From a virus, in the IMG/VR virus record IMGVR_UViG_3300046733_001096, positions 1 to 64,000 of that record: 64,000 bases of DNA, one strand, 5' to 3'. Of this stretch, positions 35,474-42,762 are shown one piece after another. Position 1 is the first letter of the stretch. Each line of letters starts with the position of its first letter. The position numbers were made by a program, and so were the translations under genes. The notes beneath the pieces are model-generated. The model was not told where the DNA came from. It saw only the letters and a list, made by a program, of their open reading frames with translations, and searched no databases.

Positions 35474-35812
35474 TTAATCATATTGATCTAACAAATTTGT
35501 TTTATCTTCTGTGTATCCTTTAGAAGGATTAACATCATCTGCTCCAGGTAATGGTTCTTTCTGGTCTACAATTACTTCCCATTGCTCAGACCATTTCGCA
35601 TTGATATCATATAACCGCTGTGTGAATAGTGGATCGGTATCTGCTATAATTGCATCAGCAGGACATTCCGGTTCACAAACGCCACAATCAATGCATTCAT
35701 CTGGATTGATTACTAACATTTCTTCACCTTCATAAAAGCAATCTACTGGACAGACTTCTACACAATCAGTATACTTACATTTAATGCAATCCTGAGTTAC
35801 TACATAGGTCAT
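35474..35812 (-). CDS. fdxA: 7Fe ferredoxin (FdxA type)
   Basis: [26 protein letters not shown]...[12 protein letters not shown]. Confidence 0.95.
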
Positions 35813-36008: not shown

Positions 36009-36701
36009 CTATCCATGTTTTTTACTTTGAACTTTCATTTTTCTTGTTTGCCATGGCACTGTATCTTCAAACATATTCACAACTTCGTCACCTTGATATG
36101 CTTCGATAAGTTTCCACCAAGGCACAATTAACAAGTGTGATTTGAGAATCATACGTTCATTTTCTGTATCATTTACAATACCATGATAGCGATTTACATT
36201 TAAAAAGTTAGGATTAAAATATTCATGTGTTTCTAATTTTTCACCGACACTATGCGTTCCGTCTTCTTGTTCCAAATGTTCATAAAAACTTATTTCTGTT
36301 TTGCCGCGCAATGGGGTATTGAATGCACTTAGTGCTCTAAAGTGATGTGCAGTATGCGGCTCTAAATTACCGCCAGGAGGCATCCAAATAAATGTAAAAC
36401 GCATACAGTGTTTAATTTCATCCCAATTCAATGTTACACCGCAGTTATTTGCAATGTTTGTAATCCTTTGAAATATTTCATTCCAAATTTGAATGTTACA
36501 GTCATAGCAGACATTGTAAATTTTTTGCTTGGTGCTATCCATTCCTACCGTACCGTGATCGCCAAATTTGTCTTTAATTTTTTGGTCAAAGAAGTTATTG
36601 AGTTCGTCTTGATCTGCTAAAAATCCATCATAACCTTTGGTTTCAGCAAACCTATCCTCATATCTATATCTTAGTTCGTTCACTTTATTCCTCCATAACA
36701 A
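36009..36701 (-). CDS. Fe(II)/2OG-type oxygenase with HxA metal motif
   Basis: MPPGGNLEPHTAH...YHGIVNDTENERMIL double-stranded beta-helix pattern. Confidence 0.6.
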   Translation of the reverse strand: MLWRNKVNELRYRYEDRFAETKGYDGFLADQDELNNFFDQKIKDKFGDHGTVGMDSTKQKIYNVCYDCNIQIWNEIFQRITNIANNCGVTLNWDEIKHCMRFTFIWMPPGGNLEPHTAHHFRALSAFNTPLRGKTEISFYEHLEQEDGTHSVGEKLETHEYFNPNFLNVNRYHGIVNDTENERMILKSHLLIVPWWKLIEAYQGDEVVNMFEDTVPWQTRKMKVQSKKHG

Positions 36702-37543
36702 TGTTCATAATCAAAACTTAATCTATACAAATAACGATCACCTTCTACTGCATTACGTTTATGAATACTATGAAACTGATCCATAAAAATAAAATCGCCA
36801 GGCTGCCAATCGTCATGGTGCCAAATATATTTGTCTTGGAAAATATGTGCCATTAGTTTGTCAATAATAAGTTCTTTATCCAACTTCTCTTCTGGTTTGT
36901 CTCTTAACCACATCTCTCTAATATAATGAAATGTAAAATATAATCCTTCGTCCCCATCGTATGGATGCGTATATACCAAAGGCTTTGTTACGCCATATTT
37001 AAAATCTCTTGTGGCACCTTGAAACATTTTAAGTTCTTTATCGTCTTTGTCTAAGTCATAGAATGTTCCATTTTCAAATTTAAATGTACAATCTATTTGC
37101 TTATAGAAATTTTTATCTTCATCACATAAATCTTTGTATGCTTGTCTTGTGTCACAAAAACTAGTTACACTATTTTCGCCTGGTCTGACACAGTAAAGAG
37201 CCACACAGCATTCTTTACCACTTTTCCTGCCATTGCCATTACTATGCCAGTCTAATTCTTTGTCTGCAAAGATACCAATCTTGTCGCCATCTTTGCGTTC
37301 GTTTGTTACTCTAAACAAACCAGGATAATCTGGGTGCATAAAAAATTGATTTGGTTTAAGTACATTGCCAATTAATTCACATACTCTTAGTATACCAGAT
37401 TCATCTAGATTTTGATTTCTAACGAGTACTACATTATCTTTTACAATGTTTTTACCCCAATCTCTAATTTCTGAGTCACTCATTGTGTTAAAGTCTACGT
37501 TATATTGCACAGCATCCATTTGCATTAATTCTCTTCTCCTCAA
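36680..37543 (-). CDS. TauD/TfdA-family dioxygenase
   Basis: VVLVRNQNL, LDWHSN, TSFCD, PLVYTHP, WQPGDFIFMD...HKR...RYLYR. Confidence 0.8.
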   Translation of the reverse strand: MRRRELMQMDAVQYNVDFNTMSDSEIRDWGKNIVKDNVVLVRNQNLDESGILRVCELIGNVLKPNQFFMHPDYPGLFRVTNERKDGDKIGIFADKELDWHSNGNGRKSGKECCVALYCVRPGENSVTSFCDTRQAYKDLCDEDKNFYKQIDCTFKFENGTFYDLDKDDKELKMFQGATRDFKYGVTKPLVYTHPYDGDEGLYFTFHYIREMWLRDKPEEKLDKELIIDKLMAHIFQDKYIWHHDDWQPGDFIFMDQFHSIHKRNAVEGDRYLYRLSFDYEHCYGGIK

Positions 37544-37548
37544 TTTAT

Positions 37549-38043
37549 TTATGATAATATTATACTAACTGCATTTTCTACTGTGATATACTCTGTAGTG
37601 GATATATTAGGATACTTTTGTAATATGCGTTCAGTTCCTACATATCCAAAATGAGTATATTTTAAATTTAAAGGTGTGTCTAGATTAATCAAATCATTGT
37701 GCAATACACGTAATGATTTTTTTTGTATTTGATATTCTAGTAAATGTTCGTAGTTTTTTAATATAGTTTCATCTTCTGCTACATTACTACCAACATTAAT
37801 TATTGTTTTGTTAGTATCTTTAAATGCATGGAACAAATCTAATAACATATAAGTTTGTCCAAACCCATCATGTGCATTGTTTATAAAAACATCAACGTCA
37901 TTGCATTGTTTAATAATACGTTTTCTGTCAATACGGTTATTAATGTCGTAGCTAGTACTTTTACTAAATCCAATAAAGTTTACAACTGATTCAGATATAG
38001 CTTTTCCTATACCCGATGTATGTCCTGTTATTGCGTATTTCAT
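37549..38043 (-). CDS. Short SDR-like oxidoreductase
   Basis: ITGHTSGIG, DVFINNA, IINVGS, Y..QK. Confidence 0.75.
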   Translation of the reverse strand: MKYAITGHTSGIGKAISESVVNFIGFSKSTSYDINNRIDRKRIIKQCNDVDVFINNAHDGFGQTYMLLDLFHAFKDTNKTIINVGSNVAEDETILKNYEHLLEYQIQKKSLRVLHNDLINLDTPLNLKYTHFGYVGTERILQKYPNISTTEYITVENAVSIILS

Positions 38044-38618
38044 CTATCACCTAATATTGTAACTACTAAATGTAATCTTTCATCCGTACTACCGTTAAAT
38101 GCAGTATGAGGAACAACTGTATTTGTCCAATACCATTGATTTTGCTTTAGATGTTTACTTTCGTTTTCGATTACCATATAACACCCGTCTTGTGTTTTTA
38201 TTGGATAATGTAATCTTGGAGTGTTATCGTTATGCCATGTTAAACAAGTCTTTGGTCTAGAATTCATTATTCGTATTCTACCAACTTTGTATTTTTTAGT
38301 TATACTATTGTATACATCTTCGAACAATGAATCTTTAAATCCTGTACAAAGTACTTCAAAACTATCATCTTTCAAAGGAACTTCTCTACGAGGTACTATA
38401 ATTTTTCCGTGTTCAGTTGTGTAAGAGTTGTCCCAATCTAAAAATAAACTTCCTCTTCCTGTTAGGCAATTTGACGGATCGTCTTTGGTTGCATTTAAAC
38501 AAATTTGATCTTTGTCATTTTTATACCACCAAATCTTTTTTTCGTTGAGTAGTTTTAAAAACTCTGTATGCAAATCATATACAGGAAGATCGTTAAGTTC
38601 GACAAAATTCATTTGCAT
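38040..38618 (-). CDS. Aspartyl/asparaginyl beta-hydroxylase-like Fe/2OG oxygenase
   Basis: GRIRIM...WHND..RLHYPI...HTAFNGS..RLHLV. Confidence 0.75.
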   Translation of the reverse strand: MQMNFVELNDLPVYDLHTEFLKLLNEKKIWWYKNDKDQICLNATKDDPSNCLTGRGSLFLDWDNSYTTEHGKIIVPRREVPLKDDSFEVLCTGFKDSLFEDVYNSITKKYKVGRIRIMNSRPKTCLTWHNDNTPRLHYPIKTQDGCYMVIENESKHLKQNQWYWTNTVVPHTAFNGSTDERLHLVVTILGDR

Positions 38619-39349
38619 TAGTTCTTTTCTCCTACTAGTATTTTATTTGGAGTTTCACGGTCACTGTTAACATAATCTCTCCAAAGTGTTGCGTTTTCAA
38701 GTTCTTGTTCATATTCTTCTTGTGTATATTTGCCAATACTAAAGTTACCATCTAAGTCCCAAACGTCTGCTACAAAATGCCATCTATCAGTATTACTTCT
38801 ATTTAAAACATTGTGGTATGGATGTACATATGCAAGATAACTATTTCCCTCTTCAAGTATGTAACTTTCGTTCCCATGAATAAAATCAGTGCCTGCATCT
38901 GTTATAATAGGAATATGGAATCTATAAAAGTTACCATCAGTATGCTTTTTAATTTCTCCACTTGGATGAATATATGATAGTCTTGCTCTTCTAGGATTCA
39001 TATTTTTTTCATGTAGAAAATCTAAGATTTCTTTAAAATATCCAGTACATGCACTTGTTTCTATACTATAGTCTAACATGTGATAAATTTTATGTTGCCT
39101 AGCATAGTCTAAATTAAAATATACTTTCGGATCAGGATCTGTCATATCTTGTTCATCATATCGCGGATATTGTATTTCTACATTAAAATTGAATCCGCTT
39201 TGCAAAGAACCGTCTTGACTAGATAATGCAATACCATGTAATCCACCATCTCTTTGTTCGTTAACATTGTTATACTCTAATATACGATACAGTTCAGACT
39301 TTAATCTATCTTTGTTAAACTTCCAATCATTTTTTACCACATGAGTCAA
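38618..39349 (-). CDS. Aspartyl/asparaginyl beta-hydroxylase-like Fe/2OG oxygenase
   Basis: RARLS.IHP..EI.KHTD..RFHIPI...HNVLN.S..DRWHFV. Confidence 0.8.
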   Translation of the reverse strand: MTHVVKNDWKFNKDRLKSELYRILEYNNVNEQRDGGLHGIALSSQDGSLQSGFNFNVEIQYPRYDEQDMTDPDPKVYFNLDYARQHKIYHMLDYSIETSACTGYFKEILDFLHEKNMNPRRARLSYIHPSGEIKKHTDGNFYRFHIPIITDAGTDFIHGNESYILEEGNSYLAYVHPYHNVLNRSNTDRWHFVADVWDLDGNFSIGKYTQEEYEQELENATLWRDYVNSDRETPNKILVGEKN

Positions 39350-40005
39350 ATCAGCAACCTTTCTTTGTTTGGTAAATTATCATAATCCACTCCAAATATT
39401 AAAACGATTCTAGTGTTATCGCTACTGTTTGTTACTCTATGTAACCAACCTGTATTAACAAAATAGCTTTTACCTCTTTGCATATCCAAACTAATTTCTT
39501 CGGTTTTTGTTTTCCATTGGAACAAACTTCCGGCTGTATTAACAGGTATTTGTACTCTACACAACACACTTGTATCAGTATCTATATGATAGTTTAGTTC
39601 ATTGCCTCCATGCATAACACTTATACGTGCTCTATAGGGTGCGTTAAATTTATCTTTAAGGTATTGTTGTATAGCAGTTGTTTTTAAATCATCTCTCCAA
39701 CTGTTATAATTTTTTTCATCAATTTCACTGTCCGCATTGTTATCTAGTTGCTGCAATAGTATTTGACTGTATGTTTCACTAGCAGTAAATGCACTTTTAA
39801 CATCACAATGTTGTGATATCTGATAATTGTCACCGCCCAAATCATTACCTGTGTAGTTATTGGCAATTTCCAATATCTCATCTAACACTGATTCGGGAAC
39901 GTTATCTGTTACTTGTCCGTGAGTTTGCATCTGATGCCTACGTGGTCCATTTTTACCACTTACTCTGCTTCTTCTTGTATCGTGTATAAGGCAATTATCG
40001 GTCAT
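39346..40005 (-). CDS. Aspartyl/asparaginyl beta-hydroxylase-like Fe/2OG oxygenase
   Basis: RARIS...YHID...RVQIP...LHRVTN...RIVLI. Confidence 0.78.
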   Translation of the reverse strand: MTDNCLIHDTRRSRVSGKNGPRRHQMQTHGQVTDNVPESVLDEILEIANNYTGNDLGGDNYQISQHCDVKSAFTASETYSQILLQQLDNNADSEIDEKNYNSWRDDLKTTAIQQYLKDKFNAPYRARISVMHGGNELNYHIDTDTSVLCRVQIPVNTAGSLFQWKTKTEEISLDMQRGKSYFVNTGWLHRVTNSSDNTRIVLIFGVDYDNLPNKERLLI

Positions 40006-40585
40006 AATTTTCCTTCCATTTTTGAATACTTATACTTTTTAAAGGCAGGCTATAATTATTAGAACAAATAACTTGCCAACTTGCAGGATCATCGTCCTGT
40101 GGATAAGTTTGATACAGTCCTTCTAAGACTTTCCATTCATTTTGTTTCTTATATTTATTGTTTAGTTTTTCGGCTAACAATGCCAACGTTCCTCGTCTAC
40201 GTTGAAACTCCACACTGAAAAATAATCTGGTAATATTATTTTGTTTTGCCCATTCTAATTGTGGATCTAACATTAGTGTTGCTGGTGTTTCAGTATCTCT
40301 TTCATAATTCATATTTTTACGTCTGTATTGTGGATTGTAATATGTTCTAGTTAGTAATCTTGCACAACCTTCTGGAAACATATGAGTTTGTACACAACTC
40401 ATAGCAATCATTTCATCATTATCTTCTACTAGGAAAGTCCATAGTGGATATTTTTTATATCGGTTTGGTATGCTCCATGCTAGATTTGGATTGAACCAAT
40501 CTTTATTTCTATCATTATTTGCATAAAATTTCTTACAGTAATGTAAGAATTCCAACTCATAATTTTCTAATGTAAGTATTTTCAT
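39995..40585 (-). CDS. Putative GNAT-fold acyltransferase
   Basis: MIAMSCV, ARLLTRTYYNPQYRR, LEWAKQNNITRLFFS pattern. Confidence 0.5.
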   Translation of the reverse strand: MKILTLENYELEFLHYCKKFYANNDRNKDWFNPNLAWSIPNRYKKYPLWTFLVEDNDEMIAMSCVQTHMFPEGCARLLTRTYYNPQYRRKNMNYERDTETPATLMLDPQLEWAKQNNITRLFFSVEFQRRRGTLALLAEKLNNKYKKQNEWKVLEGLYQTYPQDDDPASWQVICSNNYSLPLKSISIQKWKENYDR

Positions 40586-41241
40586 TTTTTAACAAACGCA
40601 GGATCAAGCCATTCGTTTAATGTATCAGGTCTAGAAACTACTACAATATAATCTGCGTTGGCTTTAAGTTTGCTATATGCGTCAGTCAACTGGCCTTTCC
40701 ATGGAGCACCTACGCAGAGTGTAATCTTTTCTTGTGGATCAGGATCAATACTGTGAGCATGACTTCCATCTAATACGTAACTATCATAGTTTCCTGGCAT
40801 GTAAACTTTGTTTAGTTTTTTATCTAAAAAATATAGTTTATTAATAGCACCATTTAGCACTAGTCTATATTTGTCCTGCAATGTACCAATTTCTTCTTTT
40901 GTACTGTCTAAATGTGTATGTAATCCTGTATTAGGAGCAGTTCGTAGAATTGTAACTCTACCCGGAGGCTCCATCCATGGAAATATTTTTTCTTCTAATA
41001 CATGTTGCATAACAGGACATTGATTGCCGGCTGACGTATAATTAAATTCACCGTTTGTAGTATTATGATTGGGGTCCCTACCACCTAGTCTACCACCACC
41101 GTTCCATATTGCAATCATTCTGCAACCTCTGAATTCATTGTAGTGGTGCACATCATCAGAAAGTGCAAGCACTTCATCAAGCATTGCTTGTTTCTCTTCT
41201 TTAGTTACACCTATGTCAACTGCACCAAACGTAAATTTCAT
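40582..41241 (-). CDS. Fe/2OG oxygenase-like protein
   Basis: GRVTILRT.P..GLHTHLD...DGSHAHS. Confidence 0.6.
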   Translation of the reverse strand: MKFTFGAVDIGVTKEEKQAMLDEVLALSDDVHHYNEFRGCRMIAIWNGGGRLGGRDPNHNTTNGEFNYTSAGNQCPVMQHVLEEKIFPWMEPPGRVTILRTAPNTGLHTHLDSTKEEIGTLQDKYRLVLNGAINKLYFLDKKLNKVYMPGNYDSYVLDGSHAHSIDPDPQEKITLCVGAPWKGQLTDAYSKLKANADYIVVVSRPDTLNEWLDPAFVKK

Positions 41242-41249
41242 GTTGCCTC

Positions 41250-41972
41250 TTAATTAGTTTTGATTAATTTAATAAACCATTTAGTTGGATCAAACTGCCA
41301 CCATTCTTGTCCAATAGCCCAACTGCCTGCCCGTCTGTGATGATTTTTGTGCCAACCTTCACCTGCTGTTAAGATATTTGCTATCCAACTATTATTAGGT
41401 TGAGCACCTCTGTGTCCTAGTATATTAAGTATTCCATATCCATGAAATGCTAGTACAACCGGTATTGCATATCCAAATATCATAAACAATGGATCAATTG
41501 CTGTAAACAATATAATAATGGCAATATTTAAATAAAAGTAATATTTGTGGAACCATCTTAGGATTTTGTCTTGTAATAAACGTTTAATGAATTTGCGTTT
41601 AATTTTAAAACCATATCCCCATGTGTTTACATATACTGCCCACATACCTTTGACACTGTGACTGTGTGGGTCTAGTTCTGTATCACTATGAGCATGATGT
41701 TGTCTGTGTGTAGCAGCCCAAGTCATTGCAGGACCAGCACCAGCAAACATACCTAATATATTTACTGCCCACGGATACCATTTGCCTGTTTTAAAACTAT
41801 TGTGCGAATAGTATCGGTGATAACCACCACTAATTGCTACAATTGCGATAATATACCACCAAAATAAAGATATAGAAAACATCCACAATTCACCATATAA
41901 AAATGCTGGAATCAACATTACGTGACAAAATGTATGATTTATAAGTAATTTTGTTGTATTTTCCATATACAC
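41250..41972 (-). CDS. Membrane fatty-acid desaturase (Delta-9/DesC-like)
   Basis: His boxes HRYYSH, HRQHH, GEGWHKNHH; DPHS; WWQFDP. Confidence 0.92.
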   Translation of the reverse strand: MYMENTTKLLINHTFCHVMLIPAFLYGELWMFSISLFWWYIIAIVAISGGYHRYYSHNSFKTGKWYPWAVNILGMFAGAGPAMTWAATHRQHHAHSDTELDPHSHSVKGMWAVYVNTWGYGFKIKRKFIKRLLQDKILRWFHKYYFYLNIAIIILFTAIDPLFMIFGYAIPVVLAFHGYGILNILGHRGAQPNNSWIANILTAGEGWHKNHHRRAGSWAIGQEWWQFDPTKWFIKLIKTN

Positions 41973-41975
41973 TTC

Positions 41976-42347
41976 CTAATAATTCATTTGTGATTCAGTT
42001 GAGTTGTATTCTGCCTCTGTTATAGTCTCGATGTCACTTATTACTAAATATTCATCAAATGATTGCAATAACATTGTTAGATCATAATGCATAGCAGATG
42101 CGTGATTCTCATATCGGTAGTAATTGGTCTGGACAACCCTACAACCGTCATCTATTCTGGTAGTTTTTCTATTATCACTAGTTTCAAGCTCTTCTTCATC
42201 AGCTAGCCGATCTAACAGTTTAGTGAACTTAGGTAAACCAATTTTTTCTTCAAACCACACCAGGTATTGGTCATGTGTTTTTCCATCGGGGTAATCTATT
42301 GTAACTGTAAATTTATATGCCATTTTTGTTTTCCTTTTGTTCATCAT
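41976..42347 (-). CDS. Hypothetical protein
   Basis: Operon context. Confidence 0.5.
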   Translation of the reverse strand: MMNKRKTKMAYKFTVTIDYPDGKTHDQYLVWFEEKIGLPKFTKLLDRLADEEELETSDNRKTTRIDDGCRVVQTNYYRYENHASAMHYDLTMLLQSFDEYLVISDIETITEAEYNSTESQMNY

Positions 42348-42762
42348 GCCATTTACTATATCTGTCTACTGCAAGCATAAGTGTATTATGTGTATCATCA
42401 AACCAATCTTGAACACGATAGTCTATATTAATTGGTGGTTGAAATATTTGATTAGTATCATCATATATGCTTTCTTTGATGGTGTCCATCCATACTACGA
42501 AATCTGCATTAAATGCTTTTCTATTTTCATCCAATGGACAGATAAAGTCTGCAACAACAGTTTTTCCGGCAAGTTCAATTCCATCTGCTAAATGACGCAT
42601 ACGTTCTGCTTGTCGTATACGTCCTTGTATACTAAAGTCCCAATCATCATACATTGTTCGCACATTATCTGCATTTAGCCATACTCCATTAATTAGTTTT
42701 GAAAAGGGTTCGGCCAACGTCGATTTGCCACTTCCTGGTAATCCACAAATTAATATTTTCAT
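42313..42762 (-). CDS. Adenylyl-sulfate kinase-like P-loop kinase
   Basis: GLPGSGKST, NADNVR, DFS..GR, DFICP, FQPP. Confidence 0.75.
   Translation of the reverse strand: MKILICGLPGSGKSTLAEPFSKLINGVWLNADNVRTMYDDWDFSIQGRIRQAERMRHLADGIELAGKTVVADFICPLDENRKAFNADFVVWMDTIKESIYDDTNQIFQPPINIDYRVQDWFDDTHNTLMLAVDRYSKWHDEQKENKNGI

What the first reader, a model, noticed from the sequence alone, without database searches (positions are those of the whole stretch)
36009..36701. Oxygenase with an H-x-A facial triad: candidate Fe/2OG halogenase
Seen: where its neighbours have HxD, this protein reads PHTAH, while keeping the distal His (YHGIVN) and the 2OG-binding Arg (ERMIL). Established: in SyrB2/WelO5-type halogenases the carboxylate ligand is replaced by Ala or Gly to open a chloride site. 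Inference: a possible radical halogenase in a marine phage. Alternatively, the following His residues may supply a 3-His site.
Basis: partly seen in the sequence, partly recalled or inferred. Interest (0 to 1): 0.7.

Follow-up and report, generated by a model that had tools for sequence, protein, structure and literature searches.

The report
Phage iron oxygenase lacking its aspartate
A phage gene encodes an iron/2-oxoglutarate enzyme that has replaced one of its three iron-holding residues with alanine, as chlorinating enzymes do, but human AspH, a hydroxylase of the same superfamily, also lacks that residue and sister phages carry asparagine there, so chlorination is a minority bet.

Summary
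The minus-strand ORF reads P-H-T-A where its PF05118 neighbours read H-x-D. It keeps the distal His (Y-H-G-I-V-N) and the Arg (E-R-M-I-L). The real start is probably GTG at 36683 (224 aa).

The AlphaFold model (pLDDT 92.6) is a double-stranded beta-helix 2OG-oxygenase fold. Profile comparison to the phage AspH-like neighbours (hhalign 94.9%) puts Ala on their Asp. The family is small and was found only on viral or unassigned contigs. It always sits in one cassette (desaturase, GNAT-like, AspH-like, TauD-like, this gene).

In 54 close relatives the position is Ala 43, Asn 8, Thr 2, Gly 1 and never Asp or Glu. Distant members keep H-x-D and match PF05118.

The halogenase reading is not refuted but is weakened:
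- Human AspH has H-T-G, binds iron with two His only, hydroxylates, and showed no halogenation.
- The Asn clade is nested among Ala forms in the same cassette.
- The coupled TauD-like partner is invariantly H-x-N.

Best reading: a two-His hydroxylase-type oxygenase (about 0.5). Halogenase is about 0.25. An earlier scan note (e1-5326627) reached the same reading for this family on other DNA.

The parts
36009..36683 (-). Gene for a 224-aa Asp-less AspH-like Fe(II)/2OG oxygenase. The listed TTG start at 36701 gives 230 aa; the GTG at 36683 is the likely start.
   Evidence: ORF. GGAGG, six bases, then GTG, and a GTGA overlap with the upstream stop. Homologues begin at the GTG position. AF2 model pLDDT 92.6 with a double-stranded beta-helix fold.
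36348..36356 (-). Codons CAT-ACT-GCA for His116-Thr117-Ala118 (His110/Ala112 in the 224-aa protein): the H-x-A that replaces H-x-D.
   Evidence: Sequence, codons, alignment to the neighbours' H-x-D. Family census: Ala 43, Asn 8, Thr 2, Gly 1.
36183..36185 (-). Codon of His173, the distal iron-binding His.
   Evidence: Invariant in all 61 family proteins. Aligned to the distal His of the PF05118 neighbours. First residue of model strand 173-176.
36135..36155 (-). Codons of Arg183 to His189 (R-M-I-L-K-S-H) on the last barrel strand. Arg183 is the presumed binder of the 2OG C5 carboxylate. Lys187 is conserved family-wide. His189 is fixed only in the Asp-less clade.
   Evidence: His189 is present in 54 of 54 Asp-less members but reads N, H, S, N, F in the H-x-D members. 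Model strand 183-190.
36680..37543 (-). Upstream, translationally coupled TauD/TfdA-family gene whose iron motif reads W-H-S-N instead of W-H-x-D.
   Evidence: PF02668, E 1e-29. Aligned to W-H-A-D of ScoE. Lies directly upstream of the target (gap of 20 bases or less) in 14 of 17 viral loci. W-H-S-N in 18 of 18 cassettes, and Asn in 120 of 121 family sequences (120 homologues plus the window's own).
37549..42762 (-). Rest of the co-oriented cassette: SDR-like, three PF05118 oxygenases (H-x-D), GNAT-like, a further DSBH-like ORF, fatty-acid desaturase, an unknown ORF and a P-loop/APS-kinase-like ORF.
   Evidence: The core set (desaturase, DSBH, GNAT-like, AspH-like, TauD, target) recurs in 17 IMG/VR loci.
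35474..35812 (-). Ferredoxin gene (2x[4Fe-4S]) downstream; a possible electron donor for the desaturase.
   Evidence: Pfam Fer4 families and DUF3470. The link to the cassette is an inference from position only.

Best explanation
The gene encodes a diverged, phage-specific offshoot of the aspartyl/asparaginyl beta-hydroxylase (PF05118) type of Fe(II)/2-oxoglutarate oxygenase. It has lost the carboxylate of the 2-His-1-carboxylate triad.

Iron is held by His116 and His173 (230-aa numbering). 2OG chelates the iron and is anchored by Arg183. The vacated coordination position is taken by water, or transiently by a group of the substrate, as in human AspH.

The enzyme most likely performs an oxygen-transfer reaction such as hydroxylation. 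Its substrate would be the unknown lipid- or amino-acyl-like molecule handled by the conserved cassette. It works next to its translationally coupled TauD-like partner, which also lacks the carboxylate (H-x-N).

Shown here: the fold, the homology, the loss of Asp and its pattern across the family, and the cassette linkage. Inferred: metal and 2OG binding, water at the open site, hydroxylation as the outcome, and the nature of the substrate.
For: - Fold: AF2 pLDDT 92.6, pTM 0.88. All 50 best wide structure matches are 2OG oxygenases: ALKBH6 Z 12.5, AlkB 11.8, AspH 9.7.
- Homology to PF05118: hhalign against the phage AspH-like neighbours gives 94.9% (E 4e-8) with the catalytic residues in register. 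6 of 17 family members match PF05118 directly, best E 1.2e-10. The nearest H-x-D member, P0055, scores 18.6 bits.
- His116, His173, Asn177 and Arg183 are invariant in the 54 Asp-less members, and Lys187 is nearly invariant across the family. This fits a working iron/2OG site.
- Precedent in the same superfamily: human AspH has H-T-G at this site, two His ligands, a water in place of the carboxylate, hydroxylase activity, and no halogenation seen with chloride.
- Position 118 tolerates Ala, Asn, Thr and Gly. The Asn clade (support 100/99) sits beside an Ala pair (97/95) within the Asp-less group and keeps the same cassette and partner. A residue whose only job is to leave space for halide should not become Asn.
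- Both Ala (GCA, GCT) and Asn (AAT, AAC) show synonymous codon variation, so both states appear to be held by selection.
Against: - Most characterised natural 2OG-oxygenase clades without the carboxylate are halogenases (SyrB2, WelO5, BesD types; own knowledge). AspH is the only well-studied hydroxylase exception.
- In AspH, and in the active FIH D201G variant, the residue is Gly. FIH D201A was inactive. This family prefers Ala, the SyrB2-type residue.
- The AspH second-sphere Asp721, four residues before the distal His, corresponds here to Val169 rather than an acidic residue.
- I had no model coordinates, so I could not check that water rather than a relocated side chain fills the site.
- No substrate or product is known.
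Confidence: 0.5

Rival explanations
1. Radical halogenase. With Ala118 in place of Asp, chloride or bromide binds the iron, and the ferryl intermediate abstracts H from an unactivated carbon and returns halogen. The Asn and Thr forms would be hydroxylating or altered sister enzymes.
For: The H-x-A ... H ... R arrangement is intact, and 44 of 54 close relatives have Ala or Gly, never Asp or Glu. Ala is kept with synonymous codon changes. Val169 lies where AspH has its water-holding Asp721, so the surroundings may be hydrophobic. The model also aligns to halogenases: HalB Z 10.5, CurA Hal Z 10.0, WelO5 Z 9.7. Independent Asp-to-Ala/Gly losses have produced halogenases several times (own knowledge).
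Against: The Asn (8) and Thr (2) forms are nested in the same clade and the same cassette. The coupled partner is H-x-N. AspH shows that two His ligands are not sufficient for halogenation. Matches to halogenase structures are no better than to dozens of hydroxylases. There is no PhyH/SyrB2-type Pfam hit. The cassette has no carrier protein, NRPS/PKS gene or halide-using downstream enzyme.
Confidence: 0.25
2. Relocated third ligand. When Asp118 was lost, another side chain took over, most plausibly His189, giving a 3-His iron site. His189 is on the last barrel strand, six residues after Arg183.
For: His189 is invariant in all 54 Asp-less members but reads N, H, S, N, F, D, S in the seven H-x-D members, P0069 counted on its aligned H-R-D. 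Residues six positions after the 2OG-binding Arg line the pocket next to the metal in AlkB. [quoted passage not shown] Free variation of position 118 among Ala, Asn, Thr and Gly fits a site that no longer matters.
Against: The coupling rests on a single evolutionary event, so it has no statistical weight. The last barrel strand lies in the sheet opposite the two His ligands, so a His there more likely reaches the second sphere than the metal (inference from general fold geometry). One H-x-D member, P0056, already has this His. No coordinates were available to measure distances.
Confidence: 0.1
3. The protein is not an iron/2OG catalyst. It could be a binding or scaffolding subunit for the TauD-like partner, or a cupin using another metal or chemistry.
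For: Both coupled proteins lack the carboxylate. The target gives no Pfam or NCBIfam hit. FIH D201A is inactive.
Against: Strict conservation of both His, Asn177, Arg183 and Lys187 down to about 42% identity is hard to explain without a ligand-binding active site.
Confidence: 0.15

Closest known systems
[quoted passage not shown]
   Same: Same superfamily: hhalign 94.9% to PF05118 neighbours, and distant family members hit PF05118. Double-stranded beta-helix fold (model Z 9.7 to 5APA). No carboxylate after the proximal His (H-T-G in AspH, H-T-A here). Distal His and Arg retained.
   Different: AspH has Gly rather than Ala, a TPR domain and a protein (EGF-domain) substrate. Its second-sphere Asp721 holds the iron-bound water, and the equivalent residue here is Val169. 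The target itself falls below the Pfam threshold. The two Asp losses are independent, since phage PF05118 members keep H-x-D.
SyrB2 / CytC3 / CurA-Hal type Fe/2OG halogenases (H-x-A)
   Same: Same H-x-A ... H motif and general fold. CurA Hal (3NNF) aligns at Z 10.0.
   Different: No sequence relationship was detectable. Those enzymes act on carrier-protein-tethered substrates inside NRPS/PKS clusters, and none is present here. To my knowledge their orthologues do not carry Asn or Thr at this site.
WelO5 / BesD / HalB type free-substrate halogenases (H-x-G)
   Same: Stand-alone enzymes lacking the carboxylate. HalB (7U6I) Z 10.5, WelO5 (5IQS) Z 9.7.
   Different: Gly rather than Ala. Different 2OG-oxygenase subfamilies. 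Structural similarity is no higher than to AlkB-type or prolyl hydroxylases.
Factor-inhibiting HIF variant D201G
   Same: Shows that two His ligands can sustain 2OG-dependent hydroxylation (cited).
   Different: An engineered variant. The Ala variant D201A was inactive, which cuts against a simple two-His hydroxylase reading for an Ala-type site.
VirX1, the cyanophage halogenase
   Same: A halogenase encoded by a marine virus.
   Different: Flavin-dependent, with unrelated fold and chemistry. The papers searched described no virus-encoded Fe/2OG halogenase.

Membership tests
Fe(II)/2OG-dependent halogenases | 2OG-oxygenase (DSBH) fold with two His iron ligands and a 2OG-anchoring basic residue | tested here: met
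   AF2 model pLDDT 92.6. All top structure matches are 2OG oxygenases. His116, His173 and Arg183 are invariant and in the canonical strands.
Fe(II)/2OG-dependent halogenases | Ala or Gly in place of the facial-triad Asp/Glu in this protein | tested here: met
   P-H-T-A aligned on H-x-D of the PF05118 neighbours.
Fe(II)/2OG-dependent halogenases | Ala/Gly kept throughout the orthologous group, so that space for halide is a conserved requirement | tested here: not met
   Of 54 Asp-less representatives, 43 have Ala, 1 Gly, 8 Asn and 2 Thr. The Asn clade is nested next to Ala forms and keeps the same cassette.
Fe(II)/2OG-dependent halogenases | Sequence or fold membership in a known halogenase clade (SyrB2/PhyH-like, WelO5, BesD/Hal, AdeV, DAH) | tested here: inconclusive
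   No Pfam, NCBIfam or PDB sequence hit. HalB Z 10.5, CurA Hal Z 10.0 and WelO5 Z 9.7 are below the AlkB-type matches (Z up to 12.5) and level with many hydroxylases.
Fe(II)/2OG-dependent halogenases | Halide bound to iron; halogenated product | not testable with these tools
   Needs a biochemical assay or a metal-bound structure.
PF05118 Asp_Arg_Hydrox (AspH-like oxygenases) | Match to the Pfam model at or above its gathering score | tested here: not met
   The target has no PF05118 hit at E up to 0.1.
PF05118 Asp_Arg_Hydrox (AspH-like oxygenases) | Demonstrable homology to PF05118 members through profiles or intermediate sequences | tested here: met
   hhalign of the family against phage PF05118 proteins: 94.9%, E 4e-8. 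6 of 17 family members hit PF05118, best E 1.2e-10. An ESM Atlas neighbour cluster carries PF05118 in 27% of its members.
PF05118 Asp_Arg_Hydrox (AspH-like oxygenases) | AspH-type two-His site with a second-sphere acidic residue holding the iron-bound water (Asp721) | tested here: inconclusive
   The position four residues before the distal His is Val169 in 53 of 54 members. Conserved Asn168 and Asn170 flank it, but their orientation could not be checked without coordinates.
AlkB-type nucleic-acid dioxygenases | H-x-D ... H plus the R-x5-R pair on the last barrel strand | tested here: not met
   The best structural matches are AlkB-type (Z 11.4-12.5). But the motif here is H-x-A and R-x3-K-x-H, with no sequence match.

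The most novel reading that the evidence does not exclude
The Ala-type members of this family are the first virus-encoded Fe(II)/2OG radical halogenases. They would have arisen independently inside the AspH-like lineage and would chlorinate or brominate an unactivated carbon of the molecule built by the phage desaturase/oxygenase cassette. The nested Asn-type sisters would be the hydroxylating counterpart, giving a natural halogenase/hydroxylase switch pair.
Probability: 0.22. Interest if true: 0.8.

Novelty: new variant of a known kind. Interest (0 to 1): 0.45.

Why it matters
Loss of the iron-binding carboxylate is the signature used to mine genomes for radical halogenases, which are valued biocatalysts. 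The papers I searched described no virus-encoded enzyme of this type.

This family is a clean natural test of how far the signature can be trusted. It is a small, phage-only clade derived from H-x-D ancestors. It has fixed Ala and later exchanged it for Asn, Thr or Gly without changing its genomic partners. It is coupled to a TauD-fold enzyme that stably carries Asn at the same site.

Either outcome is useful. A halogenase would be a sixth independent origin, by my count of the known clades, and the first viral one. A hydroxylase would be a second natural two-His hydroxylase after AspH, and a warning against motif-based halogenase calls.

The cassette itself is conserved across many uncultured phages and its product is unknown.

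Tried and rejected
- Phage GenBank records: megablast of 8 kb around the gene and tblastn of the protein found nothing.
- PDB by sequence with the family profile: no hit even at E 10.
- Pfam, PHROGs and NCBIfam on the target: no meaningful hit.
- hhalign of the family against single neighbour sequences gave the right register but very low probabilities. It became convincing only with a neighbour-family profile.
I used the search for related loci instead.
The single protein P0055 gave one locus.
- GTDB genome contigs: no cellular or prophage copy found with three peptide patterns. That is a pattern search, so this is not proof of absence.
- Promoter and terminator scan around the gene: nothing above shuffled expectation.
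- 3-His site through His119/His120: rejected because these positions vary.
- A Cys2His2 zinc site from Cys65, Cys68, His159 and His189: considered and not supported. Members lacking the cysteines keep His159, and members lacking His159 keep the cysteines.
- The predicted model's coordinates are not exposed to the script box, so no metal-site distances could be measured.

Full report
**1. The observation**

Reading the DNA shows a GGAGG, six bases, then a GTG at 36683-36681. This GTG overlaps the TGA stop of the upstream gene as GTGA. Homologues begin at this position. The protein is therefore most likely 224 aa (36009..36683), and its translation is probably coupled to the upstream TauD-like gene.

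Three genes further upstream (38040-38618, 38618-39349, 39346-40005) are PF05118 Asp_Arg_Hydrox proteins with H-N-D, H-T-D and H-I-D. A four-way alignment puts His116 on their proximal His, Ala118 on their Asp, His173 on their distal His, and Asn177 and Arg183 on an invariant Asn and Arg.

**2. Is it really a 2OG oxygenase, and of which kind?**

The target gives no usable Pfam, PHROG or NCBIfam hit. A family profile finds nothing in the PDB by sequence.

An AlphaFold2 model built on 39 homologues is confident (pLDDT 92.6, pTM 0.88). Its strand order places His116 at the end of strand 112-116, His173 at the start of strand 173-176 and Arg183 at the start of strand 183-190. That is the canonical layout of a double-stranded beta-helix oxygenase.

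Foldseek and the wide VIA search return only 2OG oxygenases and cupins. The top matches are ALKBH6 (Z 12.5), AlkB (11.8) and ALKBH5 (11.7). Halogenases HalB (10.5), CurA Hal (10.0) and WelO5 (9.7), and AspH (9.7), sit in the same broad band. The viral structure library gives phage and giant-virus proteins annotated as aspartyl/asparaginyl hydroxylases or 2OG-Fe(II) oxygenases. So the fold is settled, but the subfamily cannot be assigned from structure alone.

Sequence profiles do assign it. Comparisons of the family profile with single neighbour sequences gave the right register but negligible probability. I then built a profile of 26 phage AspH-like proteins from the window and related loci. 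With it, hhalign gives 94.9% probability (E 4e-8) over 78 columns spanning the barrel core, with H-x-A on H-x-D, His on His and Arg on Arg. In addition, 6 of 17 diverse family members match PF05118 directly (best E 1.2e-10).

The target is a diverged branch of the AspH-like lineage.

**3. Family-wide pattern at the lost carboxylate**

The word-indexed search found 48 clusters at 42-90% identity. The exhaustive profile search of 1.84 billion representatives found only 22 at E 0.001 or better. The family is small and isolated.

ESM Atlas neighbours are 91-100% viral. Seventeen IMG/VR viral contigs carry the gene. No copy was found in the GTDB species genomes by pattern search. The window itself carries tail-fibre and virion genes.

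I counted position 118 in the 61 proteins of 140 aa or more:

| Residue at 118 | Count |
|---|---|
| Ala | 43 |
| Asn | 8 |
| Thr | 2 |
| Gly | 1 |
| Asp (most distant members) | 6 |
| Ambiguous | 1 |

No close relative has Asp or Glu. His116, His173, Asn177 and Arg183 are invariant in the 54 Asp-less members, and Lys187 is nearly invariant across the family.

A maximum-likelihood tree makes Ala the likely ancestral state of the Asp-less clade. Asn arises once (100/99 support), as sister to an Ala pair (97/95). Thr arises twice and Gly once. Ala is encoded by GCA or GCT and Asn by AAT or AAC in different loci, so both states appear to be maintained by selection.

The His residues that follow Ala in this protein are not conserved: HH, NY, AY, RA, VN, SK, YN and others.

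**4. Genomic context**

tblastn of the window's cassette proteins against the 17 viral loci shows a recurring set: desaturase, a DSBH protein, a GNAT-like protein, AspH-like protein(s), a TauD-like protein and the target. The TauD-like gene lies directly upstream of the target in 14 of 17 loci. Seven loci are Asn-type and ten are Ala-type, and they share the same partners.

The desaturase is PF00487. The TauD-like protein is PF02668, and its nearest solved relative is ScoE. A 2x[4Fe-4S] ferredoxin gene follows.

The one H-x-D relative whose locus I could fetch (P0055, L018) lies in a related cassette with the same desaturase, GNAT-like and AspH-like genes. There it follows a B12-binding radical SAM enzyme and a TylF-like methyltransferase instead of a TauD-like gene.

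The cassette looks like a tailoring pathway for a lipid-like or amino-acyl-like molecule. Its product is unknown.

**5. The partner also lacks the carboxylate**

The TauD-like protein reads W-H-S-N where ScoE reads W-H-A-D. The Asn is present in all 18 cassettes and in 120 of 121 family sequences (120 homologues plus the window's own protein), down to 51% identity.

So in this system Asn sits stably at the carboxylate position of an otherwise intact 2OG-oxygenase site. This makes it likely that the Asn-type members of the target family are functional too. Whether Asn binds iron through its amide oxygen is not known.

**6. Halogenase or not**

That is a legitimate lead, since independent Asp-to-Ala/Gly losses have repeatedly produced halogenases (own knowledge). 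Four things weaken it here.

- The founding member of the lineage, human AspH, has H-T-G at the homologous place. It binds iron with His679 and His725 only and is a hydroxylase. [quoted passage not shown] In AspH a water replaces the carboxylate and is held by Asp721 (PMC10915816).
- Asn and Thr variants are nested among Ala forms in an unchanged cassette. I know of no characterised halogenase with either residue, and an Asn side chain would fill the space that halide needs.
- The coupled partner is H-x-N.
- There is no carrier protein, NRPS/PKS gene or other halogenase-associated gene in the cassette, and no specific similarity to any halogenase clade.

Three points favour halogenation. Ala rather than Gly dominates, and FIH D201A was inactive while D201G was active. 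The residue matching AspH Asp721 is a conserved Val169, so the AspH water-holding device is absent. Position 118 is restricted to small or neutral residues.

I put halogenation at about one in four.

**7. A possible relocated ligand**

I compared the 54 Asp-less proteins with five H-x-D members. A handful of polar residues are fixed only in the Asp-less clade: Gln59, Cys65, Asp67, Cys68, Asn69, His159 and His189.

His189 is the most striking. It is present in 54 of 54 Asp-less members but reads N, H, S, N, F in the H-x-D members. It lies six residues after Arg183 on the last barrel strand.

[quoted passage not shown] The Arg204/Arg210 spacing is from my own knowledge. His189 therefore probably lines the pocket beside the metal. 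It could be a second-sphere residue holding water, 2OG or an anion, or less likely a direct third ligand.

The correlation rests on one evolutionary event. I had no model coordinates to measure distances. This stays a hypothesis at about 0.1.

**8. Comparison with what is known, and novelty**

- What it works like: a two-His Fe/2OG oxygenase, with AspH as the closest mechanistic precedent.
- What it belongs to: the PF05118 lineage by profile homology, although it falls below the Pfam threshold itself.
- What it is not: a member of any known halogenase clade by sequence, and it fails the test that Ala/Gly be conserved among orthologues.

The papers I could search describe only flavin-dependent viral halogenases such as VirX1. 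They describe no viral Fe/2OG halogenase.

My results agree. They add the Asn, Thr and Gly variants, the H-x-D ancestors, the His189 coupling and the H-x-N partner.

**9. Verdict**

The gene is a new variant of a known kind: an Asp-less, phage-specific offshoot of AspH-like oxygenases, most likely a two-His hydroxylase-type enzyme (0.5). A halogenase (0.25), a relocated-ligand site (0.1) and a non-catalytic role (0.15) remain as rivals.

Interest is moderate. It would be high if halogenation were shown. The experiments that decide it are ordinary: halide-dependent turnover, a bromide-soaked structure, and cassette expression with mass spectrometry.

Noticed in passing
window 36680-37543 (-): The TauD/TfdA-family gene coupled to the target reads W-H-S-N where ScoE has W-H-A-D, so it also lacks the iron-binding carboxylate. 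The Asn is present in all 18 cassettes and in 120 of 121 family sequences (120 homologues plus the window's own), down to 51% identity. It may be a TauD-fold family with a stable 2-His-1-Asn site.
   Followed up: partly
window 36680-36694 (-): The target's likely GTG start (36683) follows a GGAGG and overlaps the TGA stop of the TauD-like gene as GTGA, which suggests translational coupling. The TTG at 36701 listed as the ORF start is probably not used.
   Followed up: yes
L018:3071-6277 (+): In a metagenome contig the nearest H-x-D relative of the target (P0055) follows a 638-aa B12-binding radical SAM enzyme and a TylF-like methyltransferase. It sits in a cassette that shares the desaturase, GNAT-like and AspH-like genes but has no TauD-like gene. 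This is a variant of the same tailoring pathway.
   Followed up: partly
window 36009-36683 (-), residues 59-69, 159 and 189 (230-aa numbering): A C-Y-D-C-N loop, Gln59, His159 and His189 are conserved only in the Asp-less clade and differ in the H-x-D relatives. They may be compensating changes around the altered metal site. Their positions in space could not be checked.
   Followed up: partly
window 35474-35812 (-) and 41250-41972 (-): A 2x[4Fe-4S] ferredoxin gene lies just downstream of the cassette, which contains a membrane fatty-acid-desaturase-family gene. This could be a phage-supplied electron donor and acceptor pair.
   Followed up: no
window 37549-38043 (-): A 164-aa ORF starts with a glycine-rich T-G-x-x-x-G-I-G motif like a short-chain dehydrogenase, but it is much shorter than a normal SDR and scores below threshold (E 0.095). 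It recurs in several related loci at variable positions.
   Followed up: no
window 40582-41241 (-) and 39995-40585 (-): Two conserved cassette genes, the 'H-L-D' DSBH-like ORF and the GNAT-like ORF, have no Pfam, PHROG or NCBIfam match at all, although they recur in most of the 17 viral loci.
   Followed up: no
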